A program made the position numbers and the translations under genes. Below the pieces are notes generated by a model, which was not told where the DNA came from, searched no databases, and saw only the letters and a program-made list of their open reading frames with translations. Positions 9,084 to 55,669 of a stretch of 64,000 nucleotides of DNA are shown piece by piece (the stretch's first letter is position 1; the number at the start of each line of letters is the position of its first letter). The stretch comes from Azolla caroliniana. Taxonomy: Eukaryota; Plantae; Polypodiophyta. The stretch lies in contig JBHGNT010000021.1 in assembly GCA_043228905.1 (NCBI GenBank), positions 4,464,001-4,528,000 on the forward strand. Direction: 5' to 3'.

Positions 9084-9327
9084 CCTTGTGTTAGGCCTTG
9101 TCCGGCTAGCGAATAACAAGGGAGTGAGTCGAGTCGTTGCCGTCGAAGTGATCATCTTCATACTCCGACATTTTCGCCTTCCCTTTCTCCAACTTCGGAC
9201 TTGGCCGAGATGTGCTTTGATCACTCGGGGGCTCTTGTGGCCCACTATGCCTTGTCGTAATCGGGCTTTCTTCGAACATGCGCATGAGCAAATCATCGGC
9301 TTCTATCTCTATTTCGGCGTATTCCTG
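9084..9327 (-). pseudogene. Copia C fragment 5 (post-integrase linker)
   Basis: EYAEIEIEADD...RPSPKLEKGKAKMSEYEDD joins in frame with 26456 (VFDESASWYALETTSTPIPLNP) once B and a 4-bp duplication are removed. Confidence 0.7.
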
Positions 9328-9946
9328 TGTCGTGGAGAAAACCGTCCCCAGGAGGAATCGGTGGATAGTGTTCATGAATTGGCCCTTACACACGAGCACA
9401 TGTTTTGATGTATTTACATAGTACAGGGCAACGATGTAATTATCCTAGGTAGCACGGATTTATTAGATAAGGGATCGAAGAGGATCTCTGTACGGGAGGA
9501 CAGAGAACAAAAGCGATGAAACAGTCTGTAACAGTTCTCTCTCCTTGTGCTATAAAAGGAGAGGAAAGGGGCTGAGTGGGGGAGCACAATTTTGGAGAGG
9601 GCGAAGTGTTGTTGTACTGGGAACCGAGCTCTAGCCTCCACTTCCATTGCTACTTCTGCAAGGATTTGGGGTTAGGTTGGTTGCCTCAGCTGCGTGAAAG
9701 CCCGTGTGCTTCCGGTAGAGGGTCCTCTGCGTATTTCAGTGCATGTGTTCATCTGTGTTGAGTCTGTCATCGGTTTGCCGGTTGTAGCATTGCAAGCTCT
9801 ATAATCTATGCTATTATTGGAATTGATTCTTTGTTCGTTCTCTCTGTGTTTCTGCGAATCTCTCTCCCTCTTCTCTCTCACGCTCCTCGGTTCAGGGCCC
9901 CCGCGGTCCCGCCTTACTTCATACACGAGAGCGTAACAACACGACA
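9328..9946 (+). repeat. B 5' LTR
   Basis: Direct repeat of 20210-20582 plus 26199-26455, with inverted termini. Confidence 0.92.
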
Positions 9947-9993
9947 TTAATTTGGTGAACCCAACGTGAATCAAGGCAGTAGAAGAGTTGAGG

Positions 9994-12900
9994 ATGAGGG
10001 GATCGGAGCTCGCCGAAGCCATGGCGGCAACAGTCGATCGGATAGTGAGGGCTCGCGAGGGCACGAGCGCCCTCGACAAGGCCATTGAATCAATTGTCGG
10101 CGCATCAGGCCGGTTCGGTGGGAAGAACGTCACGAGCTACTTGGAGTCCTACCGAGCCGAGATGGCGATGAGGGACATTGCGAAAGACAGGCGGTTGGTT
10201 GGATTCCCTTGGGTGGCGACACTAGACATTCACGCGGAGGTGCTCAAGGTGCAGGCTAGATGCCGGACATGGGAAGAGTTCGGGGGGCGGCTCCTCAAAA
10301 GGTACAGGCTCGATGACGCGCTTCGGCTAACAAAGTGAGAGTTCATGGAGTGGGTGGAGACCCCCGAAAAGGGGAGGAACATGTCTGCGCTCCTCCAGGA
10401 ATTTGAAAAATGGTTCGCTCGATTGTCGGTGTTTGACCGGACTGTGCTCGACACGAGCCGGGTCCTATTGTTTGTCAAAGCGGTGGATGCATTGGACCGG
10501 GAGAAACTGGGTCTCCTATTGGAGATGGACGAAGGGCCGTGGTAAAACAAGTCTGTAGTCGTTTCGATAAACGGCGTGAATGGAGCGGCGAGGGATCGCC
10601 GACAGCAAGGCCGGTCCTGGCAAGGAAGTTCAAGGAGCCGGTATCGATAAGGAAAGATGAGACTCAAACTTGGTAGGAGTCGGGTGCGGGATCTCTAGAT
10701 CACGTAGGCCTGGAGAGATAGTGGCGAACAATCTCGTGACCGAAGGCCGCCGACAGGGCAACGGTGCATGTGGTGTGGCACGGTCGGTTACATCCAGAAG
10801 GAGTGCACGGATTTCGCGGAAGCGCTCAGGGCTAACGCGGTGTACCTCTGGAATGGGCGGGTACACGTCAACGAGACTTGGAAATCCTTGGAGTTGAATA
10901 CTGGGCGTGGCGGAATGAAGCGGTTGATGGAGGACGCCGTGGCGCGACATGCAGAGGCCATCCACTACTTGGCATCGGCGGGGATCCAGGTCGGGGGCGA
11001 CGAGGATCTGAAGGCAAAAGACTCTGGGTTTTGGCCGCTGGTGCTAAAGGGCCTCTCCGGGGTTCGGCTAAAGGAGGAAGAGGCGGAACGCGCAAAGCAG
11101 CGGATCCGGGAGGTCACCGAATGGGACGATCCAATTGAGGAAAAGACTGGCTTCGTGGAAGCCGCGTGCCAGAACTATGAGATTCTGGTGGAAGATAAAT
11201 GTGCGGGTAAGGCCGGAGGGGCTGGACCCTCACAGCGGTACGAGACCCGGTTCAAGCCGAAGAAGAGCAATGCCGGTAGCCCCGGGATGCCTGACAAAGT
11301 AAAGTCGGCCGGTTATTGGTTGAGCACCGAAATAGAGAGGGCGACGGACCTGCGGAAGGTCCTAGAAGAGCGAATCCTTGACAACAAGGTCGAGCTATCC
11401 TTGAGGGAGGTGCTGGGGATCGCAAAGGAGTTCCAAGACTCCATCGTGGACTTGGTGAAGCGAAAAAGACTCTTGACAGAGACGTAACCGAAGAAGCCCG
11501 TAGAGGTGCGTACTACGCGCCTAGAAGATGTGGCCCTGGAAGACAAGTTAGCAGAAAGCCACTATTCGAAGTTGCACTGGGCTAGAGCCACAACTGAGAC
11601 CCCGATCGGATCGGGGACATCCATGACCCGGTCGTGGCATTGATAGACCACCGCTCAGAAATCAACTTGATGTCCATGGACTTTTACAAAAAGGGGAAAT
11701 GGCCAATCAATACCAAACATGGCTGGAAGATACGCGCGACAACCCGTGCTACGGAGGAACTACACGGGGCGTGCCCGAATGTGTGCGTCAAGATCGGCGA
11801 TGTTGAGATAGATCAACACTTTTTCGTGCAGGAGACGTCCTTGCACCTGGTGATTCTCGGTGAACCGTACATTACATCGGCACGCATGGAAACAATGGTG
11901 CTTGACAATGGTTCGGCGTAGGCGCGCGTCAAAAGCCAAGACAGACGACGCTCTGTCCAATTCCTGACCGTACGATCGAACCATGAGTGTAACCGTGAGA
12001 CCCTTAGCGGTGACAGCCGAGGGGATTTTTATAGAGGGCTATCAAGGCATGGGGCTACGATAGTCCGGACACCTCGGAGGAACCCCACATGTGTACAATA
12101 GGTAGGGGGTTTTGGTTCTCTGAAAGCGGAGGTTGTACCGTAACCGGCATCAACGGTCGGGAAAGGAAGCGGTTGGAGGAAAGACTTAGGGCGTCCGGAG
12201 TCCTCACCCCCGATGAGGAAATTAGCAGCACTGTGGAGGTGGTCTCTTTCAATGACACCTTAGGGTAATTACTGAAGGTATCCGAAGAAGGCCTCGATGA
12301 AGATCGGATGATTCCGGTTAGCTCAGTAGAAATGTACGAAGTCATTGCCGACTTCGGGGGAAGGGTCGGGTCGGATCAGACAGTTCGAGTGGATACGAGG
12401 TACAAGACTATGGACTGGAAGGTGAGGCCAATCGTGGTTCCCTTGCCGGAGGGCAGCAGGAAGTGGATAAAAAGGGTCGCGTACGACCCAAGTTTGCGGA
12501 ATCCGGCCGACATAGGACACCAGTTCACCGACATAACGTTGCGGGAGCTCAAGGTTGGTGAGGGTGAGTTTCTATTGCCGGCGGAGGAGGAACGATTTCG
12601 GAGGTTGCTCGGAAGGCATGGGAAAGCCTTCGCATTCTCGACGGAGGAGATCGGATGCGTAGACCCGACGATCATAGAACCGATGGTGATATTCACGGTG
12701 CCGCATGTGCCGTGGAATCTCAAACCGATTCCGGTACCCAGAGCTCACATCCCGAAGTTGATGGAGCTGCTGAAGCAGAAAGTGGAGATGGGCATCCTTG
12801 AACCATCGAGCGCCCTGTATTCGAATCAGTGGTTCATTGTGCCAAAGAAGAACGGCACGCTGCGCTTTATTCAGAACCTGCAGTCGGTCAACAAGGTGAC

Positions 12901-14271
12901 CATTCAGAACGCAGGAATCAGACCGACCATTGACGAGTTCGCAGAAGCCTTCGCCGGAAGGTCGATCTATTTGGTTGGGGATCTATACTCGGGGTACGAC
13001 CAGTTCCAACTAGCCGTGGAGAGCAGGGATATTACGACGATGCAGACTCCTCTCGGCCTAGGGCAGATGTGTACCTTGCTACAAGGAGGCACCAACTCGG
13101 TGGCGCACATGGTGAACGCTATGAACAAAGTGCTGAGAGACTGCATACCGGACATCACCATGCTGTTTTTGGATGACATATCAATAAAAGGGTGTCCGGT
13201 GGAGGATAAGGATGAGTTGGTTGCACCGAACGGTTGCCGGAGGTTTGTTGCGGATCACATCAAAGACTGCGAAAGGGTGCTACAAAGGCTAGAAAGCGCA
13301 CGACTCACCTTCTCCGGAGAAAAATCGGCTTTCGGTCAATCAGAAATCTTGGTGGTTGGTCACTTGTCTGGGCCTTATGGCCGGAAATTGTCTCCGGCAA
13401 AGGTCGAAGCCATTTCCGTGATGAAGGAGGAATGCAAGTCGGTAACGGAGGTGCGGAGGTTCTTGGGGGTGTGTGCATTCTACCACATATGGGTTCCGCA
13501 TTACGCACACGTCGTGGAACCACTCTATGGGTTGTTAAAGAAAGGGCGAAAGTTCAAATGGAGTAATGAACATACGGAATCAGTCCGGAGATTAAAAGAG
13601 GCGCTTACCACAACACCAGCTTTCCGAAAAGTGGTTTACGGCAAGGAGGTCCCCATCTACGTAACCGTAGACACAAGCCCGACAGGGATAGGATGGGTGA
13701 TCAATCAGGAGGATGAGAGCGGCGTGCGGTTCCCGATCCGGTTCGGGGCGAAGGTATTGAGCGAGCGGCAACGAGGATACGCCCATGTAAAGCGCGAACT
13801 ATGGGGTATCGTTTCGGCAGTCAAGGCCGATAAGGACTATCTAATTGGGACGGATTGCCTACCGATTCTCGGTATGGTCTCTGGATGCGTGACTCCGGAC
13901 CTAGCTATGCTCAGGTGGATCACATACATCAAGTCCCTAAATCCGGAGATATGACACATCTCTGGTAAAGACAACACCATGGCCGACATGCTTTCAAGAG
14001 CACGGTTCGATGACTAGGATGGCATGGTTTTGGAGAACGAAGAAGTTGGTGAGGACTTCTTCGAGTCGGCTCGCATAGCGACAAGGGTAGGGAGCACTCC
14101 GGTGCTCAACGAGTTCAATGAGAGCGAGTATGTCAGGGAGTGGCTCCAGGTTGGAAGGTTCCTAAGGACAATGACACTGGACATGGTGTGGACTAAAGAC
14201 GAGGCAAACCCGATCCGAAAGAAGGCCTACCGATTCTTCCTATGAGACGGAAGCATATGGAAGCACCCGAA
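9994..14271 (+). pseudogene. gag-pol: B gag-PR / RT-RNase H, with stops and frameshifts
   Basis: Knuckle remnant CMWCGTVGYIQKEC, protease ALIDHRSEINL, RT DLYSGYDQF and FLDDI, RNase H VTVDTS. Confidence 0.88.
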
Positions 14272-17200
14272 GGCCATGGCGTTGTCCTTTCCGGAGATGT
14301 GCCGTATCTCCGGGTTCAGGGTCTTGATGTACGCTATCCACCGGGGCATTGCTAGGTCCGGCGTCGCGCATCCGGAAATCATGCCAAGTATAGGCTGGCA
14401 GTCCGTCTCGATAATCACCTCCGTCCCGATCAGATAATCCTTGTCGGCCTTGACTGCCGAAACGACACCCCAAAGTTCGTGCTTAACTTGGGTGTACCCT
14501 CGCTGCCGCTCGCTCAACACCTTCACCCCGAACCGGATCGGGAATCGTACGCCGCCCTCGTCCTCCTGACTGATTACCCACCCGATCCCGGTCGGGCTGG
14601 TGTCCACCGTTACGCAGATGGGAACATCCTTGCTGTAAACCGCTTTAGGGAGATCCGGCGCCGTCGTAAGCGCCTCCTTTAGTCTCCGAACCGACTCCGT
14701 GTGCTCCGTCCTCCACTCAAAGCTACGCCCCTTTTTCAATAGTCCGTAGAGGGGTTCCGTGACATGTGCGTAGTGCGGGATCCAGATGTGGTAGAACGCG
14801 CATGCCCCCAAGAATCTGCGGACCTCCGTGACCGACCCGCAATCGTTCCTCATCGCGGAGATGGCCTCTACCTTTGCCGGAGACGGTTTCCTACCGTAAG
14901 GCCCGCACAGGTGTCCAACCACCAAGATCTCCGACTGTCCGAAGGCCGACTTTTCCCCGGAGAAGGTGAGCCTCGCGTGCTCTAGCCTTTGTAGCACCTT
15001 CTCGCAGTCATCGATGTGGGACGCCACGAAATTCCGACATCCGTCCGGCCCGATTGCCTCGTCCCTTTTCTCCACCGGGCATCCCTGGATCGGGATGTCG
15101 TCTAAGAACGACATGGTGATGTGCGGGATACAATCCCTGAGCACTTTGTTCATTGCATTCACCATGTGAGCCACTGAGTTCGTCCCTCCTTGTGGCAGGG
15201 TACACATCCGCACTAGGCCGAGAGGAGTCCACATCGTCGTGATGTCTCTGCTCTCCACGGCTAGTTGGAACTGATCGTATCCCGAGTATAGGTCACCGAC
15301 GGAATAGATCGACCTTCCAGCGAAGGCCTCCGCGAACTCGTCTATTGTCGGTTCGATCCCTGCGTTACGGATGGTCACCTTGTTGACCAGTTGTAGGTCC
15401 TGGATGAAGCGCAACGTGTCGTTCTTCTTCGGCACCGTAAACCACCAATTCGAATACGGGGCACTCGATGGTTCGAGGATGCCCATCTCCACCTTTTGCT
15501 TTAGGAGCTCCAACAACTTCGGGATGTGAGCTCTTGGCACCGTAATCGGCTTGAGACTCCACGGTACATGCGGTACCATGAAGATCACCATCGGTTCGAC
15601 AACTGTCGGGTCTACGCACCCCATCTCCTCCGGTGAGAATGCGAAAGCTTTCCCGTGCCTTCCGAGGATTCTCCGAAACCAGTCCTCCTTCGCCGGCAGT
15701 AGGAAGCCGCCCCCACCAACCTTGAGCTCCCGTAGCGTTATGTCGGTGAACCGGTGCCCTATGCTAGCTGGATTCCGTAAACTTGGGTCCGACGCGACCC
15801 CTTTCATCCGCTCCTTGCTGCCCTCCGGCAAGGGTGCCGCGACTGGCCTCACCTTCCGGTCCACAGTCTTGTATTTTGTATCCACGCGGGCCGTCCGATC
15901 TGACCTGATCCTTTCCCCGAAGCCCGCGATGACTTCGTACATTCCCATCGATCCTACCGGAACGGTCCGGTCTTCTCTAAGGTCTTCATCGATCACCTTT
16001 TGTAGTTCGCCCAAGGTGTCGTCAAAAGAGACCGCCTCCACGGCGCCGTTGATGTCTTCATCGGGGAAGAGGACTCCACATCTCTTGAGCCGCTCCTCCG
16101 CTCGCTTCCTCTCCCGGCCGTTGACGCTGGTTATAGTACAACCTCCGTTGTCAGAGAACCAAAACTTCCTACCCATGGTACAAGTCTTCTTCTGTACTGT
16201 ACATTTGTGGGGTTGTTCCCGGGAGTCCGGACTATCGCGGCCCCACGCCTTGATAGTCCTCTCTAAAAATCCCCTCGGGCTTCGTTGCCGAGGGCCTCGC
16301 GGTTACACTCGTGGTTCGGTCTCACCGTTAGGAACTAGACCGAGTGGCGCCCGTCCTGGCTTTTGACTCTTGTATAGGCCGAACCGTTGTCCAGCACCTT
16401 GGTCTCCATCCGTGCCACCGTGATATATGGCTCTCCTAGTATAACCGGATGCGAGGACGTCTCCTGCACGAAGAACTGCTGGTCGATCTCGACATCGCCG
16501 ATTTTCACCCGTACGTTCGGACAGGCCCCATGTAGTTCTTCCGTGGCGCGCGTCGTTGCCCGTATCTTCCAGCCGTGCTTGGTGTTGATCGGCCATTTAC
16601 CCTTCTTGTAGAACTCCATGGACATCAGGTTGATTTCGGATCCATGGTCTACCAGCGCCACCACCGGTTCCAGAACGTTGCCGATTCGTACGGGGGTTTC
16701 CGTAGTCGCCCTGGCCCAATGCGGCTTCGTGTAGTGGCTTCCCGCCAGCTCGTCTTCCAAGGCTTCGTCTTCCAGGTGCGTGGTTCGCACCTCCACCGGC
16801 TTCTCCGGTTCCGGCTCCGTCGAGAGCCTCTTACGCTTCACCAAGTCTACAATAGAGTCGTGGAACTCCCTCTTGGCGATCCCCAGCACCTCCCGCAATG
16901 ACAACTCCACTTTACTATCGAGGATTCGCTCTTCAAGGACCATCCTTAGGTCCGTTGCTCTCTCGATTTCGGTGCTCAACCGAAACCCCGCCTGCTTCTT
17001 CCCATCCGGCACGCCTGGGTTGCCGGCACCGGTCGGTTTCGGTCCAAACCGGGTCTCATACCTCGGGGGGCCGACCCCTCCGGCCTTTCCTGCCCGTTTT
17101 TCCTCCACCAGAACTTCGTAGTTCTGGCAAGTGGCTTCTACGAAGCCTGTTTTCTCTTCCACCGGATCATCCCAACCGGTGACCTCCTGGACCCGCTGTT

Positions 17201-19073
17201 CCGCGCGGTCCGCCTCTTCCCTCCTCAGCCGAACTCCGGAGAGGCCTTCAAGCACTAGCAGCCAGGATCCGGAGTCCTTCACCTTCCGGGTCTCATCACC
17301 CCCGACCCGAATTCCTGCCGACACTGAGTAGTTAACGGCTTTGACGTGCCGTGCCGCAGCCTCTTCCATCAACCTCTTCATGCCGCCGCGCCTCGTATTC
17401 AGTTCCAGGGCTCTTCGGGTCTCGCTTGCGTGCACCCGCCTATTCCAGAGGTACACCACGTTGGTCCTGAGCGCGTCGGCGAAGTCTGCGTAGTCCTTCT
17501 GAATGTGACCGATCGCGTCACACCACATGCACCGGTGCCCGCCGGCGGCCTCCGATCGCGAGGTTGTTCACCGCTATCTCTTCGGGCCTGTGCGATCTGC
17601 AGGTCGCGCACCATCTGTGTTAGCTCCTCCAGAGCCGCTCCTCTGGACAGGCCTCTGACCACGTCGTTCGATGCCGACCCCAACTCCGGCCAGATTCGGG
17701 TCTCTTCCTTCCTCCCAACCGACACTGAAACCGGCTCCTCGAGCCTCCTCCCCGGGACCGGCCCCGACCCCAACGCGCTTCTGTTGCTCCAATCGCGCCG
17801 TTTGTCGAAACGGCTGCAGACCCGTTTTACCATGGCCCAATCCGTCGTGAGCCCTTCGTCCGTTTCCAGTAGGGGACCCACCTTTTCCCTGTCGAGTGCA
17901 TCCACCGACTTGACAAATAGCAGCACTCGACTCGTTTCGAGCACCGTCCGGTCCAGCGTCGACAGCTGCGCGAACCGTTTTTCGAACTCCTGGAGGAGGA
18001 CCGACGTGTTCCTCCCTTTTTCGGGGCTTTCCACCCACGCCATGAAGTCCCGCCTCGACAGCCGGAGCGAGTCGTCAAACCCGTACTTCTCGAGGAGCTG
18101 CAGCTCGAACTCCTCCCAAGTCTGGCATTCGGCCAGCACCTCGAGCACCTCCGCATGGATGCCCGGCGTCACCACCCGAGGGAATCCGGACAGCTGCCTG
18201 TCCACCGGGATATCCCTCATGATCATTTCGACCCGGTAAGCCTCCAAATAACTTGTGGCGTCTTTCCCTCCGAAACGGCCTATAGAGCCGACGATCGATT
18301 CAATGGCTCTGTCGAGGGTACCCGTTCCCTCATGAGTGCTCACCAGCCGGTCGACGGCCACCACCATCGCCTCTGCTGGCTCCGATCCCCTCATCTTTCG
18401 ACTCCTTTGCCGCCCTTTTCACGTCGGGTTCACAAAATATGTCGCGTTATTACGCGCGTACGTGTAGAAAGGGGCGGGACCACGGGGGTCTTGGACCGAG
18501 GAGTGAGAGAGAGAGATACAGAGAGAGAGAAAGATTCACCGACACGTAGAAGCGAGGAAGTGAGAAACAGAACGTAACACTTAATTATAATGATAGAGAT
18601 TACAAACTCCGACAGTTACAACCGACAAAGCAGCGACGGGCCCGACACGGGGACCCTACTCACGCACACCGACGACGGTCACCGACTCCAAGAAACAAAA
18701 GGGGAAGGGGAGAGACTCTGTTGGAAGCACACGGGCTGTCCACGAAGCAGAGGCAGCGACCTCCCGACACCCGCAGAGAGTGACGATTCGTCCTCCAAGA
18801 GAGAGAGCTCCTCTTCCGTTCTGCAGCAACCTCCCTCCTCCTCCTCGCGCGCGATATCCTTCTCTCTTGTCAAGTCCCTTTTTATTCCCTGTCCTCCCCT
18901 CCGTCTGACAGAGATACGCACAATCTCCTGATAAATGCGTGCCGCCTCGTATTTCACCCACCGATCCGTTTATGAATCGGGTACAAAATATCAAGTTACG
19001 CGTCCATCCGTGTAAGAGCCGGTTCACGCGCCTTTCTCTCCGAATCCGCCTATGGCCGATTTTCTTCACAACA
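14272..19073 (-). mobile_element. Element I: 3'-truncated Trp-primed gypsy inserted antisense inside the B integrase
   Basis: 5' LTR 18440-19073, mutated PBS near 18419-18435, gag 17399-18394, gag-PR 16335-17528, RT-RH 14272-16176. No integrase or 3' LTR. Confidence 0.88.
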
Positions 19074-20136
19074 CCGTGCTTATACTAGGACGTGCACCGG
19101 TTTGTGACGACGTGCGAGAATTGTCAGATGCACTCCGCAATCCGGCATCGAGACGAGCTAAACCCGACTTACCCGCCGACCGTCCACTTCAAATGGATAG
19201 TGGACTTAGTAACGATGCCAATGGGAGTAGGACAGATGTGGTATCTGGTGCTTGCGCGGGGAGGACTTAACAAATCAGGTGGAAGGCTGCACACTGTAGA
19301 ACAAGACAACAACGGATGTATGCATGTTCCTGATCAAAGAGGTGGTATGCCGATACGGGTGCGCAGGGAAGATCATGGCTGACCGGGGAGAGTTGGATGT
19401 GCAGGAAGCCGAAGAGTTATTCGATAGGTTAGGGGTGAAGCTCTATCTCACTACGACGTACAACCTGGAGGTGAACGGAAAGGTAGAATGCGGACATAGG
19501 CCGATCGTGAAGGCTTTAGTACGTGCATGCGTAGGGCAGGTTGGGAATTGGCCACGACTCCTTCCTTACACACTATGGGCAGACCGGACAATGCATAGTT
19601 CAATGATCGGGTACATGCCGATAGAGCTGATGTATGGGTAGAAACCGGTCATGCCGGTGGAACGGACAATTACCTCATGGGCAACGATAGATTGGAGGAA
19701 CGAGATGAGCCGAGAAGAGCTGTTGGCGGCGCAGATTCGACAGCTCGAGCGAAGACTAGAGGACGTGGTGGGGGCAAAGGCGAAGCTGCAAACGACGAGG
19801 GAGAGGAACAAATGCCAGTTCGACTGAACACATCGGTTGCGGCCAAAGAAGATTGAAGAAGGCGAGTAGGTGAGGGTGTACGACAGTAGCCTCGACAACC
19901 AGCACAAGGCGACGCGCAAATTCGCAAGGAGGTGGTTCGGGTCCTACGCCGTAACGAGCGCGAACGACAATGGCACCTACCATCTTGCGGAGCTCGACAG
20001 GACGCGATTAACAGTACCGGTAGCTGGGAAGAGGATCAAGGCGTTCAAGAAGCGGAACGAGAACGAGTCGGACCTGGGGAGTGAGGACGATGATGACCGG
20101 TTCGGAGTAGGTGGTGAACCAGAGAGCGAAAAATGA
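19074..20136 (+). pseudogene. pol: B integrase remnant
   Basis: HRFVTTCENC, KWIVDLV, ADRGE and WFGSY motifs, with several stops. Confidence 0.85.
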
Positions 20137-39615: not shown

Positions 39616-39619
39616 ATGA

Positions 39620-42410: not shown

Positions 42411-42453
<43 letters not shown>

Positions 42454-42556
42454 TGGTCCAAAACCCCCGTGGTCCCGCCTCTTCCTACACGCGAACGCTA
42501 ATCTTCACGACATAATTGGTGAACCCGACGTGAACAGGCGGCAAAGGAGTCAGAAG

Positions 42557-44349: not shown

Positions 44350-47300
44350 TGTCGCGTTGTTACGCGCGTGCGTGGAGAAGGGCGGGACCACGGGGGTCTT
44401 GGACTAAGGAGAAGGGGAGAAGGAATAGGACTTCGGAATGGAGCTTAGCACAAGAAGAGAAAGAATGAACAAGAGGGAGATGGAGGCCAAATGCTCAACA
44501 AGATATATTAGAACCGAAAACCGATTACAAAATGGCGGCCGCGTAGGCCGCACCAAACGACTATGATAAACCCAAAACCCTAATCCGACGAAGAAGGAAA
44601 GAAACCCTAACTAAGGAACCCGAAACCCTAAAACGAAATGGTATACCTCACTCACACTCAAAATAAGGCAACCCCCACAATGGTGCTCTTCCTCTCCCTT
44701 TATAGCACAAGGAGGGAAGACCGTTACATAAAGGTGCTACAAAATATCCCCTTTCAATCAATGGGGATATTTCCCTTGATTTTAGGGGAGGTGGGAAGGA
44801 TGGGTCTTAACTCCCATCTCTACACGAACTACTATGTACCTATCTCTCTCTCTCTCACGTGGATGTGCGCGCAAAAGCACATCACCTTTACACTTTACAA
44901 ATCCTAAGGTGCATTTCTAGCACCATACTTATCACTATCGATAAATAGAAATACAACATGGTGATGTGCAACGTTGCACATCGCGGGTTTGCTTGCTTCG
45001 CTCGGGTTTCCGCCTATGGACGAAAATCTTCACGACATCCGCCCCCACCTAACCGCACATCCACCGGTATGTGCCAAAAGGGGACAAAACGCGAGATTTT
45101 CGGCCAAGGCGGCCAACCGAGCCCTTGACAACCTCGTGGGCTTGCCCGGCTTTGTCTTCCACTTCGAGCAAGTCCACCCCGTCCACACGAACCACCGTCG
45201 CCTTCCGGCCCACCATCTCCACCGAATGGTCTCGAACCGTCGGCTCCATCCGATCCGCCACACTTGACAACGTTCGCCGAGTCGTTGCCTCCACCCGATC
45301 CGCCACGTCCATCGTGATTCTTTGAACCACCGTCTACATCCGGACCGCCGTTTCCGATGCCCGCGCCTTCTTCCCCGATCGGTCCTCCCGAACGCCGTTG
45401 CCGACCCGGTTGCTCTTCTTTTGTCCGCCTCGTATAGCCTCCGGATGCTCTCCCGATCTCTCCGGTTGCACGCCGGATTCCGCCTTTCCCGTGCTTGCCG
45501 TGCTCTCTCGCCGTAGAGCATACCATCGTTCCCGTGCTCGTTGCTTGGCCCTCATGCGGCCGCATTGCACGTTTCGCATTCCGCTCCTCTTCGCGTACCC
45601 TTTCGGAAAGGTACCTTTCTTCCCCGACCTCCGTTTCGCTCGGAGGAACACCCTCTTGGCCCTCTTGGTCCGCTCGACCGCACACATCCTTCGTGATGTC
45701 GTGTTCGTTCTTTTGGGCGCATACATCTTCGTTCTCCGCGACCTCCCGTATGCCTCTCTCGGTGCCTTCATCCGTTGTGGCCTTCGTCCCCTCGCCGCCA
45801 CCGTCCGCCACTCTTGGTCTCACGTCGGCACTCGCGCCGACCGCCGGAGTCTCTATAGCCGGTGTGGAGGATCCCTCTCGGGCCTTATCTTCGTGGCCGC
45901 CGGTCTTAGCCTCTCCGTAGGCCACCTCTTCCCACCAATCTTCCCTAGCATCGTGCCAGGTCTTGTCGTCGCCGCCTTCCTCCTCGTATTCGCCTCTCGA
46001 AGGCGTGATCCGACCGTCATCTTCGGTCGCTCGATGTGGCTCCTTCGTAGGCATGCTTGTGTCTTGGCCCTCCATCGGCCGTATTGCATGCATCTCGTCT
46101 CGCTCTTCCGCCGTAGATCCGACCTCCGTGTCGGTCTTCTCCTCCTTTGTCGCCGTAGCCCGTTCCGACACGGGCTCGCCGTCTTGGACCCACCCGTCCA
46201 CCATCTCGTACCGGATATCCGTTCCGGTAACCTCGTACGCTCCGGCCTCCGACTCCTCGCCGCCACCCGCCGTCTCTCCGGTCTTATGTTGATCCGCAAC
46301 CGCCGTAGTCTCTAGAGTGGGTATGGAGGGTCTCGTTTGTTTCCGTTTTTCCCCCGAACCATGGTCGTCGTGCCCGGTTAGCCTCCATCTCGCGCTTACC
46401 GGCTCCCATCGTAACCGTAACCGCAACCGTAACCGGCCAATCGGTCTAGCCGGCTTCCTTCGGTTTGGGCCCGGTTCGCCGGCCCTTACTCTCTTCCTCT
46501 TCCGTGCCGTATTCCGGTCGGGTCGGTTCCCGACTCTCTCCTCGTTTCCGCTCCGGTCCTCTCCGTCGGACCCACCGTATACGCCCATTCCGGGCCCCGC
46601 ATACTCGTCTTCGTATGCGCTCTCTCCGGGCCTCACCCTCTCACGGTCACCGCCCATCTCTCCGGTCTCACGTTGGCATTCGAGCACAACCGCCGAAGTC
46701 TCCGGCCCCGGTGTCAAGGGGTCTTGCCTCCGTCCGCTCCAATCTTCCTTCTCGTTTCCGTTGCCCGCCTTGCCGCCGTCACCTCCCGTCGCACTAAGCC
46801 TTATGCCGGCACTCGGTCCGGCCATTGGAGCCTCTAGGATTGGTGTGGGTAAGGACCCGGCACCGCCGCTTGTTGTCTCCGTAGCCGCTTTCGTTCGGAC
46901 GTCGTTGTCCGCGGCTCCCCCATCTCCGATTCCGTAAGCCTCTAGTATGCTTGCCACCACCTCTTCTTCGCCGTTCTCCGCGTCATTTTGTTTGCCCGCC
47001 TTGCCGCCACCACCGCCCGTCGTTCTAGGTCTCGTGCCGGCACTCGGGCCGACCGCCGAAGCCTCTAGGGCCGGTGTGTGGAAGGTCGCGGCACCACCGC
47101 TCGCCTCCTCTCCGCTCGATGTTTTGGGCCGCCGTGCCCCGAATCTTCCGCCCACTTTCGAAGTGGCGCTCTCCGCTTTGTAGTCACCGGCCTCATCCTT
47201 GGCCGTCCATTCGCCGCAAGACGAGAGGGTTGCTCGCTCCGCACCCTCTCCCATGTCGTCGTCGTTTCGGTTGCCCCCCTTGCCGCCGCCACCGTCCGTC

Positions 47301-49940
47301 ACTCTAGGCCTTTCGCCGGCTCTCGGGCCGGGTGCCGGAGTCTCTAGGACCGGTGTGTGGAAGGTCGCGACACCATCACTCCTCTCGTCCGTAGCCACCT
47401 CCATTCGGACATCGTCGTCCGTGGCTACCCCGTCTTCGGTTTCGCAAGCATCGAGTATGCTTGCCGCCGCCTCTTCTTCGCCGGTCTCGTCCTCATTTCG
47501 GTTGTCCGCCTTGCCGCCGCCACCGTCCGTAGCTCTAGGTCTCGTGCCGGCACTCGGGCCGACCGCCGAAGCCTCTAGGGCCGGTGTGTGGAAGGTCGCG
47601 ACACCGACGCTCGTCTCCTCTTCCTCCTCCATTTCGCAAGCCTCGAGTATGCTCGCGAAATCCTCGTAGAACGTTTCGTGCAACCGCGTCCCGAAACTTC
47701 CGCCCACTCTCGAAGTGGCGTCCATCGCTCCGTAGATATCGGCCTCGTCCATGGCCGCTCTTTTTCCCCGAGATGAGAGGGTCGCTTGCTCCGCACCTTC
47801 TCTCGTGTCGACGCCGTGGTCGCCCGCCTTGCCACCGCCACCGCCTTTCACCATAGGTCTTACGCGGGCACTCGGGCCGGCCGCCGTGATCTCTAGGAAT
47901 GACGCGTGTAAGGTCGCGGGACCGCCGCTCGTCGATGTAATGTCCGTAGCCACCTCCGCTCGGACGTCGTTGTCCGTGGCTACCCCGCCTCCGTATATGC
48001 AAGCATCGGTTATGCTTGCCGCCGCCTCTTCCGCGGTCTCCTTACCGTTGTCTCGGTTGCCCGCCTTGCCGCCACCACCGTTCTTCTCCCTCGGTCTTAC
48101 GCGGGCGCTCGGGCCGGCCGCCGTGGTCTCTTGAACCGGTGCGTGGAAGGTTGCGGTACCGCCGCTTGTCTCCTCCGTACTCGATGATTCGGGCCACCGT
48201 GTCCCGAATCCGCCATGTCCGCTCGAATAGGCGATCGCCGCCTCACCGTCCCCGACCTCGTCCCCGGTCGTTCTTTTCCCCCATGTCGAGAGGGCGGTTC
48301 GCTCCGCACCCTCTCCCGTGGTACCGATGTACCATTCTCTTTCGGCCTCCGCATAGGCCCCGTCCTCCATGTGTGAGGAAGCTCCTTCCTCCGCGTCCTC
48401 CGATCCGCTCGGGCCCGACCCCGCAATAAGCCATTCTTCGGCTTCGATTTTCGCCATTACGAGCCCGCACGCCTCCCGTATTAGCGCTTGTAGGTCGAGC
48501 CCCTCCAAACCGGTTCGCGATGAGCTCTCGTCCGGCAGCATGGCGTAGTCGGTCGTCGCTCTCTCTTCTCCCCCGCTCGCGGGCCGTGTTGTGTCCGACC
48601 GCCTCGCCTCATGTTGCCGACACACCCATTCCACTTCGGGCCACTCCTCGGTGAGACCATGCGCCCCATAATCGTCTTGAAGCTGGAACATGATGTCCGT
48701 CCTCTCCTCATGATGGACCGTCTCCAAAAATAGGAGGACTTTGTCCGCCCCCACCGATCTTCGTTCCCACTCCGAGAGTTGAGAGAAACGACGCTCGAAC
48801 TCTCGGAATGCCTCTATTGCGCTCCGATGGCGCCTCGCCGACGCCACCCACCGATCGAACTCTCGCCGACCTCTTACCTCCGATTCCGCGCACCCGTATG
48901 CCTCCATTAGAGCCCCTTCAAAGGACTCCCACGATTCGTGAGCTTCTTGGAGCTCCTTGACCTCCTCGTACTTTGATGCGGCCGCCGCTCGACGAAAGAA
49001 CTCTAGCCTCGTCGCCTCGTCCACGCCCATCCTCGTCATTTCCGCATCGTAGGCTCTCAAAAATTTTGGGACCTCCTTCCCATCGAACCGGCCGACTAGA
49101 CGGACCACCCTTTCGACCGCTTGTTGAGCCGCCTCTCGCCTCGCCCTCTTCCGTCCGGCGTCCATCAAGATCTTTGTCATCATTTCCTCGAAGTCGAAGC
49201 CTTCCTCCATCTCTTTCTCCCTTGCCGCCTTTCACGTCGGGTTCACCAAAGATGTCGCGTTGTTACGCGCGTGCGTGGAGAAGGGCGGGACCACGGGGGT
49301 CTTGGACTAAGGAGAAGGGGAGAAGGAATAGGACTTCGGAATGGAGCTTAGCACAAGAAGAGAAAGAATGAACAAGAGGGAGATGGAGGCCAAATGCTCA
49401 ACAAGATATATTAGAACCGAAAACCGATTACAAAATGGCGGCCGCGTAGGCCGCACCAAACGACTATGATAAACCCAAAACCCTAATCCGACGAAGAAGG
49501 AAAGAAACCCTAACTAAGGAACCCGAAACCCTAAAACGAAATGGTATACCTCACTCACACTCAAAATAAGGCAACCCCCACAATGGTGCTCTTCCTCTCC
49601 CTTTATAGCACAAGGAGGGAAGACCGTTACATAAAGGTGCTACAAAATATCCCCTTTCAATCAATGGGGATATTTCCCTTGATTTTAGGGGAGGTGGGAA
49701 GGATGGGTCTTAACTCCCATCTCTACACGAACTACTATGTACCTATCTCTCTCTCTCTCACGTGGATGTGCGCGCAAAAGCACATCACCTTTACACTTTA
49801 CAAATCCTAAGGTGCATTTCTAGCACCATACTTATCACTATCGATAAATAGAAATACAACATGGTGATGTGCAACGTTGCACATCGTGGGTTTGCTTGCT
49901 TCGCTCGGGTTTCCGCCTATGGACGAAAATCTTCACGACA
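44350..49940 (-). mobile_element. Element E: young non-autonomous gag-only LTR retrotransposon (TR-GAG-like)
   Basis: 688-bp LTRs 44350-45037 and 49253-49940 (one difference seen), perfect TSD GCGT, Trp PBS 49231-49248, PPT near 45038-45050, no PR/RT/IN. Confidence 0.95.
45014..49210 (-). CDS. 1398-aa Gag-capsid-like N-terminus fused to a ~1150-aa acidic/Gly-rich repetitive tail
   Basis: Intact ORF with ATG about 20 nt past the PBS. Its N-terminus (VGRFDGKEVPKFLRAYDAEM...EFERRFSQLS...KVLLF...GLTEEW..V) aligns by eye to the D/I gag (IGRFGGKDATSYLEAYRVEM...EFEKRFAQLS...RVLLF...GLTTDW..V). Confidence 0.9.
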   Translation of the reverse strand: MEEGFDFEEMMTKILMDAGRKRARREAAQQAVERVVRLVGRFDGKEVPKFLRAYDAEMTRMGVDEATRLEFFRRAAAASKYEEVKELQEAHESWESFEGALMEAYGCAESEVRGRREFDRWVASARRHRSAIEAFREFERRFSQLSEWERRSVGADKVLLFLETVHHEERTDIMFQLQDDYGAHGLTEEWPEVEWVCRQHEARRSDTTRPASGGEERATTDYAMLPDESSSRTGLEGLDLQALIREACGLVMAKIEAEEWLIAGSGPSGSEDAEEGASSHMEDGAYAEAEREWYIGTTGEGAERTALSTWGKRTTGDEVGDGEAAIAYSSGHGGFGTRWPESSSTEETSGGTATFHAPVQETTAAGPSARVRPREKNGGGGKAGNRDNGKETAEEAAASITDACIYGGGVATDNDVRAEVATDITSTSGGPATLHASFLEITAAGPSARVRPMVKGGGGGKAGDHGVDTREGAEQATLSSRGKRAAMDEADIYGAMDATSRVGGSFGTRLHETFYEDFASILEACEMEEEEETSVGVATFHTPALEASAVGPSAGTRPRATDGGGGKADNRNEDETGEEEAAASILDACETEDGVATDDDVRMEVATDERSDGVATFHTPVLETPAPGPRAGERPRVTDGGGGKGGNRNDDDMGEGAERATLSSCGEWTAKDEAGDYKAESATSKVGGRFGARRPKTSSGEEASGGAATFHTPALEASAVGPSAGTRPRTTGGGGGKAGKQNDAENGEEEVVASILEAYGIGDGGAADNDVRTKAATETTSGGAGSLPTPILEAPMAGPSAGIRLSATGGDGGKAGNGNEKEDWSGRRQDPLTPGPETSAVVLECQRETGEMGGDRERVRPGESAYEDEYAGPGMGVYGGSDGEDRSGNEERVGNRPDRNTARKRKRVRAGEPGPNRRKPARPIGRLRLRLRLRWEPVSARWRLTGHDDHGSGEKRKQTRPSIPTLETTAVADQHKTGETAGGGEESEAGAYEVTGTDIRYEMVDGWVQDGEPVSERATATKEEKTDTEVGSTAEERDEMHAIRPMEGQDTSMPTKEPHRATEDDGRITPSRGEYEEEGGDDKTWHDAREDWWEEVAYGEAKTGGHEDKAREGSSTPAIETPAVGASADVRPRVADGGGEGTKATTDEGTERGIREVAENEDVCAQKNEHDITKDVCGRADQEGQEGVPPSETEVGEERYLSERVREEERNAKRAMRPHEGQATSTGTMVCSTAREHGKHGKGGIRRATGEIGRASGGYTRRTKEEQPGRQRRSGGPIGEEGAGIGNGGPDVDGGSKNHDGRGGSGGGNDSANVVKCGGSDGADGSRPFGGDGGPEGDGGSCGRGGLARSGRQSRASPRGCQGLGWPPWPKISRFVPFWHIPVDVRLGGGGCREDFRP

Positions 49941-52900
49941 GCGTGCTACGGAGGAGCTGCATGGTGCGTGCCCGAATGTACGCGTAAAGATCAGTGATGT
50001 CAAGATAAATCAACATTTCTTCGTGCAGGAAACATCCTCCCACCTGGTGATTCTTGATGAACCGTACATTACGGCAGCATGCATGGAGACGAAGGTGCTG
50101 GACAACGGTTCGACGTACGCGCGCGTCAAGAGCCAAGACGGTCAACATTCCGTCCAGTTCATGATCATACGTCCAAACCATGAGAGGAATCGTGAGACCC
50201 TCGGCGGCGACAACTGAGGGGATTTTTAGAGAGGGCTATCAAGGCGTGGGGCCGCCGTAGTCCGGACGTATCGGAAGAACCCCACACATGTACAATAGGT
50301 AGGAAGTTTTCGTTCTCCAAAAATGGAGGTTGTACTATAACCGGCGTCAGCGGCTGGGAGAGGAAGCGAGCGGAGGAGAGGCTTAGGGGATGCAGAGTCC
50401 TCTCCCCCGACGAAGAAATCAGCGGCGCCGTGGAGGCGGTCTCTTTTGACGACACCTTGGGCGAGTTGCGAAAGGTGATTGGTGAAGACCTTAGAGAAGA
50501 CCGGACCGTTCCGGTTAGTTCGATGGGAATGTACGAAGTCATCACGGACTTCGGGGAAAGGATCGGGTCGGATCGGACGGCCTGTGTGGATACAAAGTAC
50601 AAGACTATGGACTTGAAGGTGAGGCTAGTCGCGGCACCCTTGCCGGAGGGCAGCGAGGAGCGGATAAAAGGGGTCGCGTTGAACCCAAGTTTACGGAATC
50701 CGGCTGGCATAGGGCACCGGTTCACCGACATAACGCTATGGGAGCTCAAGGTCGATGGGGGTGGCTTTGTACTGCTGGCGGAGGAGGACAGGTTTCGGAG
50801 AATGCTTGGAAGGCATGGGAAAGCCTTCGCGTTCTCGCCGGAGGAGATCGGGTGTGTGGACCCGACGATCGTCGAACCGATGGTGTTCTTCACGGTACCG
50901 CATGTACCGTGGAATCTCAAACCGATTTGGGTGCCGAGAGCTCACATCCCGAAGTTGATGGAGCTTCTGAAGCAAAAGGTGGAGATGGGCATCCTTGAAC
51001 CATCGAGTGCCCCATATTCGAATCGGTGGTTTACACTGCCGAAGAAGAACAGCACGCTGCGCTTCATTCAGGACCTGCAACCGGTCAACAGGGTGACCAT
51101 CCGTAATGCAGGAATCAGACCGACCATAGACGAGTTCGCGGAGGCCTTCGCTAGAAGGTCGATCGATTCGGTCGGTGACTTATACTCGGGGTATGAGCAG
51201 TTCCAACTAGCCGTGGAGAGCAGGGATATCACGACGATGCGAACTCCTCTCGGCCTAGTATGGATGTGTACCCTACCACAAGGCGGGACGAATTCGGTGG
51301 CGCATATGGTGAACGCAATGAACAAGGTGCTGAGGGACTGCATCCCGGACATCACCATGCCATTCTTGGACGAAATCCCGATAAAGGGGTGTCCGGTGGA
51401 AGATGTGGACGAGACTGTCAGGCCAGACGGATGCCGAAGGTTTGTCGTGAACCACATCAACGACTGCGAGAAGGTGCTGCAGAGGCTCGAGAGCGCACGA
51501 CTCACCTTCTCCAGAGAAAAATTGGCGTTCGGGCAGTCGGAGATCCTGGTGGTCGGACACCTGTGTGGGCCTTAAGGTAGGAAACCGTCTCCGGCAAAGG
51601 TAGAGGCCATCTCCGCGATGAGGAACGATTGCGGGTCGGTTACGGAGGTCCGCAGATTCTTGGGTGCATGCGCGTTCTACCACATTTGGATCCCGCACTA
51701 TGCACATGTCGCGGAACCCCTCTACGGACTATTGAGAAAGGGGCGTAGCTTTGAGTGGAGGATGGAGCACACAGAGTCGGTCCGGAGACTAAAGGTTGCG
51801 CTTACGGTAGCGCTAGCTCTCCGTAAAGCGGCCATCTACGTGACGGTGGACACGAGCCCGACCGGGATCGGGTGGGTGATCAACCAGGAGGACGAGGATG
51901 GTGTACAGTTCCCGATCCGGTTCGGGGCGAAGGTATTGAGCGAGCGGCAGCGAGGATACGCCCAAGTCAAGCGCGAACTATGGGGTATCGTTTCAGCAGT
52001 CCAGGCCGACAGGGACTACCTGATCGGGGCGGAGGTAATAATCGAGACGGACTGCCTGCCAATACTCGGCATGGTTTCCGGATGCGCGACGCCGGACCTA
52101 GCAATGCTCCGGTGGATAGCGTACATTAAGTCCCTGAACCCGGAGATACGACACATCTCCAAAAAGGATAACGCCATGGCTGACATGCTTTCGAGAGCGA
52201 GGTTCAACGACGAAGACGACATGGTTTCGGATGACGAAGAAGTCGGCGAGGACTTCTTCGGGTTGGCTAATGTGATGACGAGGAAAGGGGACACTCCAGC
52301 GCTTAACGAATTCGACGAAAGCAGGTACGACGGGGAGTGGCTCCAAATCGGGAGGTTCCTACAGGCGATGACGCCGGACGCAGCGTGGATGAGAGAAGAG
52401 GCGAGCTGGGTACGGAAGAAGGCGTACCGATTCTTCCTACGGGAAGGGTGCATATCGAGGCACCCAAAGAAAAGAATGGCATCCCACTTCGAGTAGTGGT
52501 AAAGAAAGAAGAACAAGAGGAAATACTAGCGGCATTTCACGAGATTCCCTCGGCCGGGGCTGTACCGGGATGTGCATCGGTTCGTAACGACTTGTGAAAG
52601 TTGTCAGATGCACTCCGTAGTCTGACATCGGGACGAGCTACACCCGACCTACCCGCCTACGGTCCATTTCAAGTGGATGGTAGACTTGGTGACGATGCCG
52701 ATGGGAGTAGGACAGATGCGATTCCTGGTGCTTGCGCGGGAAGACTTAACGAACCAGGTGGAAGGCCGTGCACTGCTGAACAAGACAACCGCGGTTGTAT
52801 ACCGGTTCCTGATTGAAGAGGTAGTGTGTCGGTACGGTGCAATGGGAGTATCGTGGCAGATCGGGGAGAGCTGGATGCGCAAGAAGCTGAGGAGTTGTTC

Positions 52901-53617
52901 GACCGGCTAGGGGTCAAACTCTCCCTCACTACGGCGTACAATCCAGAGGCGAACGAAAAGGTAAAACGTGGGCACGGGCCGATCGTAATGGCGTTGGTGC
53001 GTGCATGCGGAGGGCAGGTCGGGAATTGGCCGCGGCTCCTTCCTTACGCACTATGGGCGGACTGAACTATGCACAGTTCGGTGACAAGGTTTATGCCGGC
53101 AGAGCTGATGTATGGACAGAAGCCGATCATGCCGGTGGAACAGACGGTTTCTTCGTGGGCGGCGGTAGATTGGAAGGACGAGATGAGCCGGGAGGAGTTG
53201 CTGGCGGCGCGGATTCGGCAACTCGAGCGGAGGCCGGAGGACATGAAACGGGCGAAGGAAAAGTTGCGGGTGGCAAGGGAGCGGAACAAGACCTGGTTCA
53301 ACCGGACGCACCGGTTGTGCCCCAAGAAGGTTGAGGAAGGTGACTGGGTCTTGGTATACGACAACAACCTCGACAATAAGCACAAGGCGGTGCGCAAGTT
53401 TGCTAGGAGATGGTTCGGGCCCTACACGGTGACGAGCGCGAACGACAATGACACGTACCACCTCGCGGAACTCGACGGGACATGGTTAGCGGTACCGGTG
53501 GCCGGGAAGCGGATCAAAGCGTTCAAGAAGCGGTTCGGAGACGAGCCGGAGCCGGCGAGCAAGAGCGACGAAGACGATCGGTTCGGGCCCGGCGAAGAAT
53601 CGGAGACCGACAAGTGA
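49941..53617 (+). pseudogene. pol: D protease C-half, RT, RNase H and integrase
   Basis: RATEELHGACP resumes after E. DLYSGYEQF, FLDEI (mutated), VTVDTS, KWMVDLV and WFGPY motifs. Confidence 0.9.
50220..50285 (+). promoter_or_regulatory. Putative -1 ribosomal frameshift signal between PR and RT (also 12023-12090 +, 16207-16272 -, 33913-33957 -)
   Basis: GGATTTT-TAG followed about 6 nt later by a conserved stem. RT is in the -1 frame in D and I. Confidence 0.7.
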
Positions 53618-54280
53618 AGCCGGTTTTCTTCGGTATCTACCCGTCTTTGGCGCATGCCGGTGGATGCGCGGTTTGGTGGGGGTGGATGTCGTGAAGAAAA
53701 CCGGCCATAGGCGGAATCGGAGAAAAAGGCGCATGAACCGGCTCTTACATAGGCGGATGCGAGAATTGATATTTTGGACATAATTCAAAATTAGGTCGGC
53801 AGATGTAAATACTAGGTAGTACACATTTATTAGGGGATTTGTGCGTATCTCTGTCAAAAGGGACAAGGAATAAAGCGATTTGACTAGGGAAGAAGGGTCT
53901 CCCCTTGGCGAACTATTTAAGGAGGGAGAGAAGGAAGAAAGGGATTGCATGTTGGCGAGGACGAAGTGCTGCTGCAGAACCGAGGGCCGAGCTCTCTCAC
54001 CTCCGATCATCGTTCTCTGTGGGGGTGTCGGGAGTTCGCTGCCTCTGCTTCGTGGACAGCCCCGTGTGCTTCCAGCAGAGGCTCTCTCCTCCCCGCCCCC
54101 CCCCCCCCCCCCCCCTTTTTTTTTGTCTCTTCGAGTCAAGTGGCTCTCGTCTATGTGCATGAGTAGGACCCCATGTCAAGTCCATTACCGGTTTGCCGGT
54201 TGTAACTATTCGAGTTGTAAGCTACTGATTATAGTAATCGGATTCCTGTTTCTTGCTCTTTTTTCTGTCTGTGTATTTGC

Positions 54281-54315
<35 letters not shown>

Positions 54316-55669
54316 TGGTCCAAGACCCTCGTGGTCCCGCCACTTCCTACACGCGAACGCGAAACTTCGCGACACCGTCATCCCGACCTTTGTATCGGGG
54401 TCCTTCACAGCTCTCGTTATTGCTTTATCCCGACTCGCGCCCTCTTGGGCCATTTGGCCTCGCACGTCCTCCGGGACCCCACGTTTTCTCTTCCTGGTGC
54501 GTAGCCCTTTGCTCTCTGTGCACCATCCTCCGCAATCTCGACAACTCACCGCCCCGCCTTCCATCCCATGCTTGCCTCTCAAAGGCTCGACGGGACCGCC
54601 ATCACCGGTCACTCGTTGCCGCTCTTCTGAGTGCATGCTTGTTTCTTAACCCTTCGCAGGCCGTAGTGCATGCTCCGTTTCATGCCCTTCACTCGCCGTA
54701 GTCCCAACCTTCGCATCAGCCTCTTCTTCCTTCGTCCTCGTAGTCCTTTCTGGCTTCGTTTGGCCCTCTTGACCCCACTCGTCCGTCTTTCCGCACCGGA
54801 TACCCGTTTCTGTAACCTTGTCCGCCCCGGCCTCTGACTGCTCACCGCCACCCGCTGTCTCTCCGGTCTTACATTGATCTGCAACCGCAGAAGCCTTTAG
54901 AATAGGTGTGGAGGGTTCCTCTTGTTTCCGGCCTTCCTCCGGACCGTAGTCGTTGCACCTACTTGGCCTCCTCGTGCTCACCTTGGTTACTCGTTGCCTC
55001 TATTGCTACGGACTTTGTCCCGTCATCGCCACCGTCAGTATCTTGGTCTTATGTCAGCTCCCGACGCCAAACGCCGAAGTCTCTAGATCCGGTGTGGAGG
55101 ATCCGTTAGGCCACCGACTCATGCACCAAGCGTCTCCGGTCTTTGTCCTGTTGACTTTGCCGATCGGGTCCGATTCTGGTTCGTGGCCGTGTCCCTAGCC
55201 TTATACCTCCTTCCGCTCCTTTTTGGCCCTTCTGCTTGATCTCGTTCACCTGTCGCCACCGTCCTTCTGTCCAGGTCTCATGCCGGCTCTCGCGCCAACC
55301 GCCAGAGTCTCTAGATCGGTGTGAGGATTGCCCACCCGCACTTCCTTTGCCCTCGTCCCCTCGCCGCCACCGTTAGTCTCTTGGTCTTATGTCGGCTCCG
55401 CTACCGACTGCCGAAGTCTCTAGATCCGGTGTGAAGGATCCTCCTTGGGCCTCTTGTTTTTCGACCCTATCCCCGGTGTTCCTTCTCTGCATGTCGAGAG
55501 GGTGGCTCGCTCCACACCCTCTCCCGTGGTACCGATGTACCATGTTCCGGACTCTTCGTAGGCCTGTTTCCTCCCCCCTTCCGGATCGGTTATCCGAAAG
55601 TCCGCTCTCCCGGTTCTCATTCGGGTCTGTCTGTCACTTTGCATTGCTAGGTCCCGTTCTACTACCGCC

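What the first reader, a model, noticed from the sequence alone, without database searches (positions are those of the whole stretch)
9324..54378. Trp-primed lineage inserts with 4-bp target duplications centred on CpG (NCGN)
Seen flanks: E GCGT/GCGT (44346, 49941); D CTGT/CCGT (41825, 54375); F ACGT (40549); I CCGT (19074); J ACGC (34669); B CCTG/CTGG (9324, 26456). For B a 4-bp duplication restores the host reading frame and each copy is one change from CCGG. Five clear sites and one reconstructed site all have a central CG, whereas G, H, K and L show 5-bp TSDs. Inference: a CpG-directed (possibly methyl-CpG-directed) integrase without a chromodomain, which would steer insertions into other TEs and help explain the nesting. 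Only E and D have both flanks confirming the TSD length.
Basis: partly seen in the sequence, partly recalled or inferred. Interest (0 to 1): 0.8.

Follow-up and report, generated by a model that had tools for sequence, protein, structure and literature searches.

The report
Phygy retrotransposons that insert at CpG
These nested jumping genes insert almost only at four-letter sites with CG in the middle, a real habit already published for the moss 'Phygy' retrotransposon lineage to which they very likely belong; whether the CG must be methylated is untested.

Summary
B, D, I and J are Ty3/gypsy elements with a DUF4100 gag and a tRNA-Trp primer site; E and F are non-autonomous partners with the same ends. 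The integrase ends after its SH3-like domain (no chromodomain, no archaeal RNase H). All 5 directly readable flanks have a central CG (window background 6.7%). Single-copy empty sites in paralogues confirm 4 bp for D and E. Outside the window, 19 of 22 host flanks of related elements were NCGN. In two read sets of the same family, most listed LTR-end contigs match through the CG. Neumann et al. 2019 list Phygy as 4-bp TSD 100% (NCGN), tRNA-Trp 81%, no extra domain. Gag relatives occur in Physcomitrium, Riccia and Adiantum. The avoidance of T at the first and A at the last position (18 of 19 sites VCGB) is generic 4-bp-integrase behaviour; the strict CG centre is the lineage's own. Methyl dependence is untested. 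CG targeting is not needed for the nesting, since the 5-bp-TSD elements here nest as well. Placement against REXdb reference sequences was not possible.

The parts
9328..26455 (+). Element B: Phygy-type Ty3/gypsy (5' LTR 9328-9946, Trp PBS 9953-9969, DUF4100 gag, RT-RH-INT, 3' LTR from 20210 split by copia C); I is nested in it
   Evidence: LTRs 92.6% identical
9324..9327 (+). B left flank CCTG (right flank CTGG at 26456-26459); CCGG is a reconstruction, not shown
14273..19073 (-). Element I: 3'-deleted Phygy-type copy inside B; single flank CCGT at 19074-19077
27900..34668 (-). Element J: diverged, rearranged Phygy-type copy (truncated LTR, pol, inner LTR about 29570-30502, Trp PBS near 29557, truncated gag; left end approximate); single flank ACGC at 34669-34672
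   Evidence: RT 70% to P0001
40553..64000 (-). Element F: non-autonomous partner (3' LTR 40553-41319, 5' LTR from 63284 runs off the window, Trp PBS just left of 63284); single flank ACGT at 40549-40552; hosts D and K
41829..54374 (+). Element D: full-length Phygy-type Ty3/gypsy, 6,948 bp without E (LTRs 41829-42512 and 53687-54374, Trp PBS 42517-42533); TSD CTGT 41825-41828 / CCGT 54375-54378
   Evidence: empty-site paralogue
44350..49940 (-). Element E: very young non-autonomous partner (LTRs 687 of 688 identical, Trp PBS 49232-49248, one 1,405-codon ORF with no Pfam hit); perfect TSD GCGT 44346-44349 / 49941-49944
53066..53617 (+). D integrase C-terminal part: SH3-like domain, then a short acidic tail; no chromodomain
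20583..26198 (+). Control: copia C, 5-bp TSD AAAGT/AAAGC, nested in B's 3' LTR
34686..37238 (.). Control: element G, 5-bp TSD CCGAG/CCGAG
37471..40521 (.). Control: rearranged chromodomain-bearing gypsy H, flanks GCCAC/GTTGC
56950..62204 (-). Control: intact copia K, 5-bp TSD CATCG/CATCG, nested in F

Best explanation
These are tRNA-Trp-primed, chromodomain-less Ty3/gypsy elements, very likely of the Phygy lineage, that leave 4-bp duplications centred on CG, most likely because the integrase itself selects the CG step by sequence. Shown: element anatomy, 4-bp duplication at D and E, central CG at nearly all sites, and no reader domain by Pfam. Inferred from retroviral intasome work: a 4-bp stagger needs a sharp bend at a central pyrimidine-purine step and disfavours T at the first and A at the last duplicated base, giving the VCGB edges. 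Inferred and untested: because only CG is used (19 CG, 1 TG, 0 TA, 0 CA among 22), bendability is not enough, so lineage-specific integrase contacts likely pick CG whether or not it is methylated. Non-autonomous E and F would borrow this integrase. The nesting is likely ordinary accumulation in a gene-poor, TE-dense region.
For: REXdb table: Phygy 186 elements, 4 bp (100%) (NCGN), tRNA-Trp 81%, no extra domain; the text names the NCGN preference. Trp PBS read in B, D, E, F, I and J. DUF4100 gag in 3 of 3 gag ORFs of B, D, I. Of 120 listed gag homologues, 29 are Physcomitrium patens, 11 Adiantum and 3 Riccia proteins. 19 of 22 unique host flanks are NCGN against about 5% background, and CG at other offsets is 0-4 of 22. 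Listed loose ends at E's outer LTR end reach through the CG in 67 of 106 (X1) and 89 of 134 (X5) contigs, and depth falls about 24-fold just outside it. VCGB in 18 of 19 against 40-52%. T/A avoidance at TSD edges and central YR are described for 4-bp retroviruses (PMC4422553). A CGCG target is known for the Drosophila ZAM subgroup (PMC5408687); that flies largely lack CpG methylation is recalled.
Against: No REXdb reference or P. patens RT was available, so the tree cannot place the elements in Phygy. D (6.9 kb) is shorter than the REXdb range of 7,656-9,968 bp. Nothing here separates sequence readout from methyl readout. The motif I flagged (DRGEL, aligned with PFV Ala188) contacts bases outside the duplication in PFV, so it does not by itself explain the centre. 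Nearly all of the 22 flanks come from one series of assemblies with unknown hosts. The rule that picked them does not use the flank, but I wrote it. The read tool may merge neighbouring positions and hid 41 rows.
Confidence: 0.75

Rival explanations
1. The integrase, or a host partner, needs the central CpG to be methylated, which steers new copies into silenced repeats without a chromodomain.
For: The centre is CG only, not other flexible steps. The region decays like methylated DNA: 14 of 33, 18 of 34 and 20 of 40 LTR transitions in D, B and F are at CpG. All six window sites lie in TEs. Phygy domains are enriched at centromeres of the liverwort Apopellia (PMC12885004, passages), and Phygy-in-Tcn1 nests are noted in P. 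patens (PMC6911290, passages).
Against: The same decay is seen in G (11 of 24), and methylation after insertion explains it. The 5-bp elements nest as well. The integrase ends in an acidic tail after the SH3-like domain, with no Pfam reader domain at E 0.1. 13 of 19 NCGN flanks had no match to the TE proteins I held, several in AT-rich, CG-poor DNA (small library). Searches gave no paper reporting such an integrase (listings seen; one hit read in passages).
Confidence: 0.12
2. Same targeting habit, but the elements are a sister clade of Phygy or belong to TatI (also Trp-primed with 4-bp TSDs).
For: TatI: 4 bp 100%, tRNA-Trp 75%. Gag is only about 31-64% identical to the P. patens proteins, and D is below the Phygy size range.
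Against: TatI has an archaeal RNase H in 100%; Pfam found none in 3 of 3 full-length relatives, and RH runs into the integrase in D. REXdb names NCGN only for Phygy. 11 of 29 P. patens gag-type proteins continue into the same pre-RT region, at 32-59% identity.
Confidence: 0.1
3. Chance or artefact: CG flanks reflect a GC-rich region or mis-set element ends.
For: Only D and E have both flanks; B is reconstructed; 3 of 22 outside flanks were not NCGN.
Against: Binomial p about 6e-20 for 19 of 22; the read-depth plateau stops at the CG; empty-site paralogues fix the ends; the pattern is published for 186 elements.
Confidence: 0.01

Closest known systems
Ty3/gypsy non-chromovirus Phygy (REXdb; Neumann et al. 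2019, PMC6317226; passages, section 9 and supplement 3 seen)
   Same: 4-bp NCGN TSD, tRNA-Trp primer, no chromodomain or aRH, coding region filling nearly the whole interior; gag relatives in P. patens.
   Different: Described there as specific to P. patens. Here it is a distant relative by gag, about 6.9 kb long, with non-autonomous partners, and kin in Riccia and Adiantum. Phygy in a liverwort is already reported (PMC12885004).
TatI (REXdb)
   Same: 4-bp TSD, tRNA-Trp primer.
   Different: Carries an archaeal RNase H (100%), which was not found here; no NCGN preference listed.
Selgy (REXdb)
   Same: Short non-chromovirus with a 4-bp TSD.
   Different: tRNA-Ala primer (90%), about 5 kb, no NCGN preference listed.
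Drosophila ZAM subgroup errantiviruses (PMC5408687, passages seen)
   Same: Gypsy-type integrase with a palindromic CG-centred target (CGCG).
   Different: Insect lineage with a different target consensus; works alike, not tested as kin.
PFV and other 4-bp-TSD retroviral intasomes (PMC4422553; abstract and passages seen)
   Same: Central YR step; T and A disfavoured at the first and last duplicated base; integrase homologous (E 8e-19).
   Different: Weak preference for any YR step there; near-absolute CG here. A neutral compact residue sits at the Ala188 position there; here DRGEL[DN] with a one-residue gap.

Membership tests
Phygy | Ty3/gypsy domain order gag-PR-RT-RH-INT | tested here: met
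   (protease only weakly seen, in relative P0166)
Phygy | 4-bp TSD | tested here: met
   D and E with empty-site paralogues
Phygy | NCGN target preference | tested here: met
   5 of 5 readable window sites; 19 of 22 outside flanks; read sets
Phygy | tRNA-Trp primer binding site | tested here: met
   TGGTGAACCC-type PBS in B, D, E, F, I, J; its assignment to tRNA-Trp is recalled, not from a tRNA search
Phygy | No chromodomain and no archaeal RNase H | tested here: met
   none in P0001, P0002, P0245 or D's integrase tail; positive control H gave Chromo E 4e-11; tails
Phygy | Clusters with REXdb Phygy in RT/RH/INT trees (the formal definition) | tested here: inconclusive
   one clade (100/100) of 21 of 23 rows with Riccia and Adiantum RTs at 66-86% to P0001, far from A and H; no REXdb or P. 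patens RT available; the link to P. patens is through gag and the pre-RT region
Phygy | Size 7.7-10 kb (descriptive; the paper calls size weak for classification) | tested here: not met
   D is 6,948 bp against 7,656-9,968
TatI | Archaeal RNase H domain in pol | tested here: not met
   0 of 3 full-length relatives
Selgy | tRNA-Ala primer | tested here: not met
   PBS reads as Trp type (assignment recalled)
Chromoviruses (Tcn1 and others) | Chromodomain at the integrase C-terminus | tested here: not met
Methyl-CpG-directed integrase (hypothetical) | Preference for methylated over unmethylated CG targets | not testable with these tools
   no genome, methylome or assay available

The most novel reading that the evidence does not exclude
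The Phygy integrase reads 5-methyl-CpG directly in its target-binding groove, with no reader domain. That would give mosses, liverworts and ferns an ancient retrotransposon lineage that homes to methylated DNA, a third route to heterochromatin targeting beside chromodomains and host tethers.
Probability: 0.12. Interest if true: 0.75.

Novelty: new member of a known kind. Interest (0 to 1): 0.2.

Why it matters
As found, it confirms a published lineage trait in another host and adds three small points: the preference holds across divergent families, the motif is VCGB, and non-autonomous partners share it. The mechanism of the strict CG choice was not found in my searches. This family has a very young copy (E) and high read depth, so it is handy material for testing it. 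A sequence-strict plant integrase would interest integrase biologists; a methyl-reading one would matter for epigenetics and targeted insertion tools.

Tried and rejected
No whole genome is held, so no genome-wide TSD logo. The viral-contig scan found 0 matches. Runs X11 and X16 gave only 5 and 1 contigs at the LTR end and are no evidence. The 3'-end search gave only 3 ends: 2 NCGN and 1 PBS-like. L030 has CCGC at one end and ACGT at the other, probably a collapsed contig, so it is not counted as a TSD. Rows dropped before the 19-of-22 count, out of 122 PBS sites: 57 with under 460 bp upstream, 30 with no TGTCGTG in range, 1 with too short a flank, 12 preceded by a polypurine tract. Of the 3 misses, ATGG looks like CpG decay, and AATA and GCTC look like mis-called starts; all 3 were kept in the count. 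No named P. patens RT turned up in two searches or the cluster look-up. D's integrase tail had no PDB sequence match. An AlphaFold job on the pol alignment had not finished, so no structural claim is made. The 'NCGN' paper search listed unrelated papers (20 of 93 seen). GingerRoot (PMC6839031, passages) has a 6-bp TSD and no strict motif, so it was rejected as an analogue. PMC7466625 (passages) does not discuss TSDs or say which RLG family is Phygy. Earlier-finding look-ups returned nothing. Two of five supplement files of PMC6317226 hold the word Phygy; I read file 3 whole and did not see the per-element table (Additional file 1), which may already show the VCGB detail.
Full report
What the window is. 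The 64 kb are a stack of nested LTR retrotransposons at 52% GC with no CpG depletion (observed/expected 1.0). No genome is held. Pfam, self-alignment and protein mapping resolve the elements. B, D, I and J are Ty3/gypsy with RT-RH-INT, and B, D and I have a DUF4100 gag. E and F share their LTR ends and primer site but show no RT or integrase. C, K and the host of B are copia, A is another gypsy, and H carries a chromodomain.

Checking the observation. E has a perfect GCGT/GCGT. D has CTGT/CCGT, one C-to-T change at the CpG. Paralogues show the empty sites with one copy of the 4-mer: B and I for E's site, and E for D's site. F, I and J have one readable flank each, all with central CG. B (CCTG/CTGG) keeps the host frame with a 4-bp duplication, but CCGG is only one of two possible single-step ancestors, so I do not count it. 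G and K have perfect 5-bp TSDs, C has one mismatch, and H matches at 2 of 5.

Evidence from outside the window. A pattern for LTR end plus primer site found 122 stretches in the scanned half of metagenome contigs, with wide flanks for 80. I took the nearest TGTCGTG 450-1300 bp upstream as the LTR start. That left 22 unique host flanks out of 122 sites, after dropping 57 too short, 30 without the motif, 1 at a contig edge and 12 preceded by a polypurine tract. 19 of 22 were NCGN against about 5% background, with 0-4 of 22 at other offsets. The rule ignores the flank but was written after I had seen, and nearly all loci come from one series of assemblies. Those of the 22 loci that match the window do so at 71-83% and 7 do not match at all, so several families are sampled.

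Reads of the same family. I laid contigs on E's outer LTR end, whose flank is GCGT. Listed loose ends lay at 44347 (55 in X1, 73 in X5) and 44345 (12, 16), against 39 and 45 at the LTR end itself, whose consensus is the primer-site side. So 67 of 106 and 89 of 134 listed ends match through the CG, where random flanks would give about 6%. Depth drops about 24-fold just outside. The tool hid 41 rows and may merge neighbouring places, so I take this as strong but rough.

What it is. Neumann et al. [quoted passage not shown] Their table gives Phygy as 186 elements, 4 bp (100%) (NCGN), tRNA-Trp 81%, no extra domain. The window's elements meet each of these. Gag homologues include 29 P. patens, 11 Adiantum and 3 Riccia proteins among 120 listed, and 11 of the 29 P. 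patens proteins run on into the same pre-RT region. TatI shares primer and TSD length but has an archaeal RNase H, absent in 3 of 3 full-length relatives. The formal test, a tree with REXdb references, could not be run. My RT tree only shows one clade with liverwort and fern sequences. D is shorter than the published size range. Phygy outside P. patens is already reported in a liverwort.

How it likely works. Shown: 4-bp stagger, CG centre, and an integrase that ends in an SH3-like domain and acidic tail (60 of 109 tails printed). 18 of 19 NCGN sites also avoid T first and A last, against 40-52% expected. That pattern was noticed in these data; the 5 readable window sites and 2 3' ends, not used to find it, all fit. 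Serrao et al. 2015 (PMC4422553) describe the same edge rule and a central flexible YR step for 4-bp retroviruses, largely independent of chromatin. So the edges are generic. The centre is not: 19 CG, 1 TG, no TA or CA. I infer base-specific contacts in this lineage's integrase. One lead is the DRGEL[DN] motif after the second catalytic Asp, in 96 of 112 related sequences, many of them close kin. It aligns with PFV's Ala188 loop with a one-residue gap. In PFV that residue touches bases outside the duplication, so this is a lead only. The Drosophila ZAM subgroup prefers CGCG, in an animal with little CpG methylation (recalled), which suggests methylation is not needed for such a habit.

The methyl idea and the nesting. 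LTR pairs decay at CpG (14 of 33, 18 of 34, 20 of 40 transitions), but so does G (11 of 24). This shows a methylated region, not a methylated target. CG density is 63-101 per kb in most elements here and 20-38 in J, G and H, so a plain CG rule steers little. C, G, H and K nest without it. 6 of 19 outside NCGN flanks matched my small TE protein set. Methyl dependence stays open at about 0.12; my searches found no paper that tests it.

Verdict. A real and correctly read feature, already described for Phygy. New member of a known kind; interest 0.2.

Noticed in passing
window 45014-49231 (-): E, whose LTRs differ at 1 of 688 bases, holds one open 1,405-codon frame with internal repeats and no Pfam hit; its start lies right after the primer site, where gag would be. 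F is an older sibling. A non-autonomous Phygy partner with a long unknown ORF.
   Followed up: partly
L004, L012, L014, L029, L032, L034, L040, L044, L073, L077; window 29570-30502: 12 of 34 located 5' LTRs were preceded by a polypurine tract, as is J's inner LTR: tandem LTR-body-LTR-body arrays, or contigs collapsed into a circle. PMC11899658 reports tandem structures (listing only seen).
   Followed up: no
window 44345-44346: Possible extra preference for C just outside the duplication (10 of 22 flanks at -5; loose-end consensus ends in CA), hinting at a CACGTG-like six-base site. Weak.
   Followed up: partly
window 5885-8647 (+): Gypsy A carries two extra frames (284 and 635 codons, one stop between) after pol, with no Pfam hit, like the extra ORFs of Athila/Tat elements; a 30-base A run lies at about 5649-5678.
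   Followed up: no
window 35243-36056: Element G (2.5 kb, about 550-bp LTRs) holds a 48-bp tandem array; no pol match was seen in it.
   Followed up: no
window 37471-40521: Chromovirus H is rearranged: its RT-protease piece is inverted relative to the LTRs and the chromodomain plus LTR part is duplicated.
   Followed up: partly
window 34681, 56945, 37466: The 5-bp TSDs of G (CCGAG) and K (CATCG) also contain a CG, and H's may have; C's does not. Too few to mean anything.
   Followed up: no
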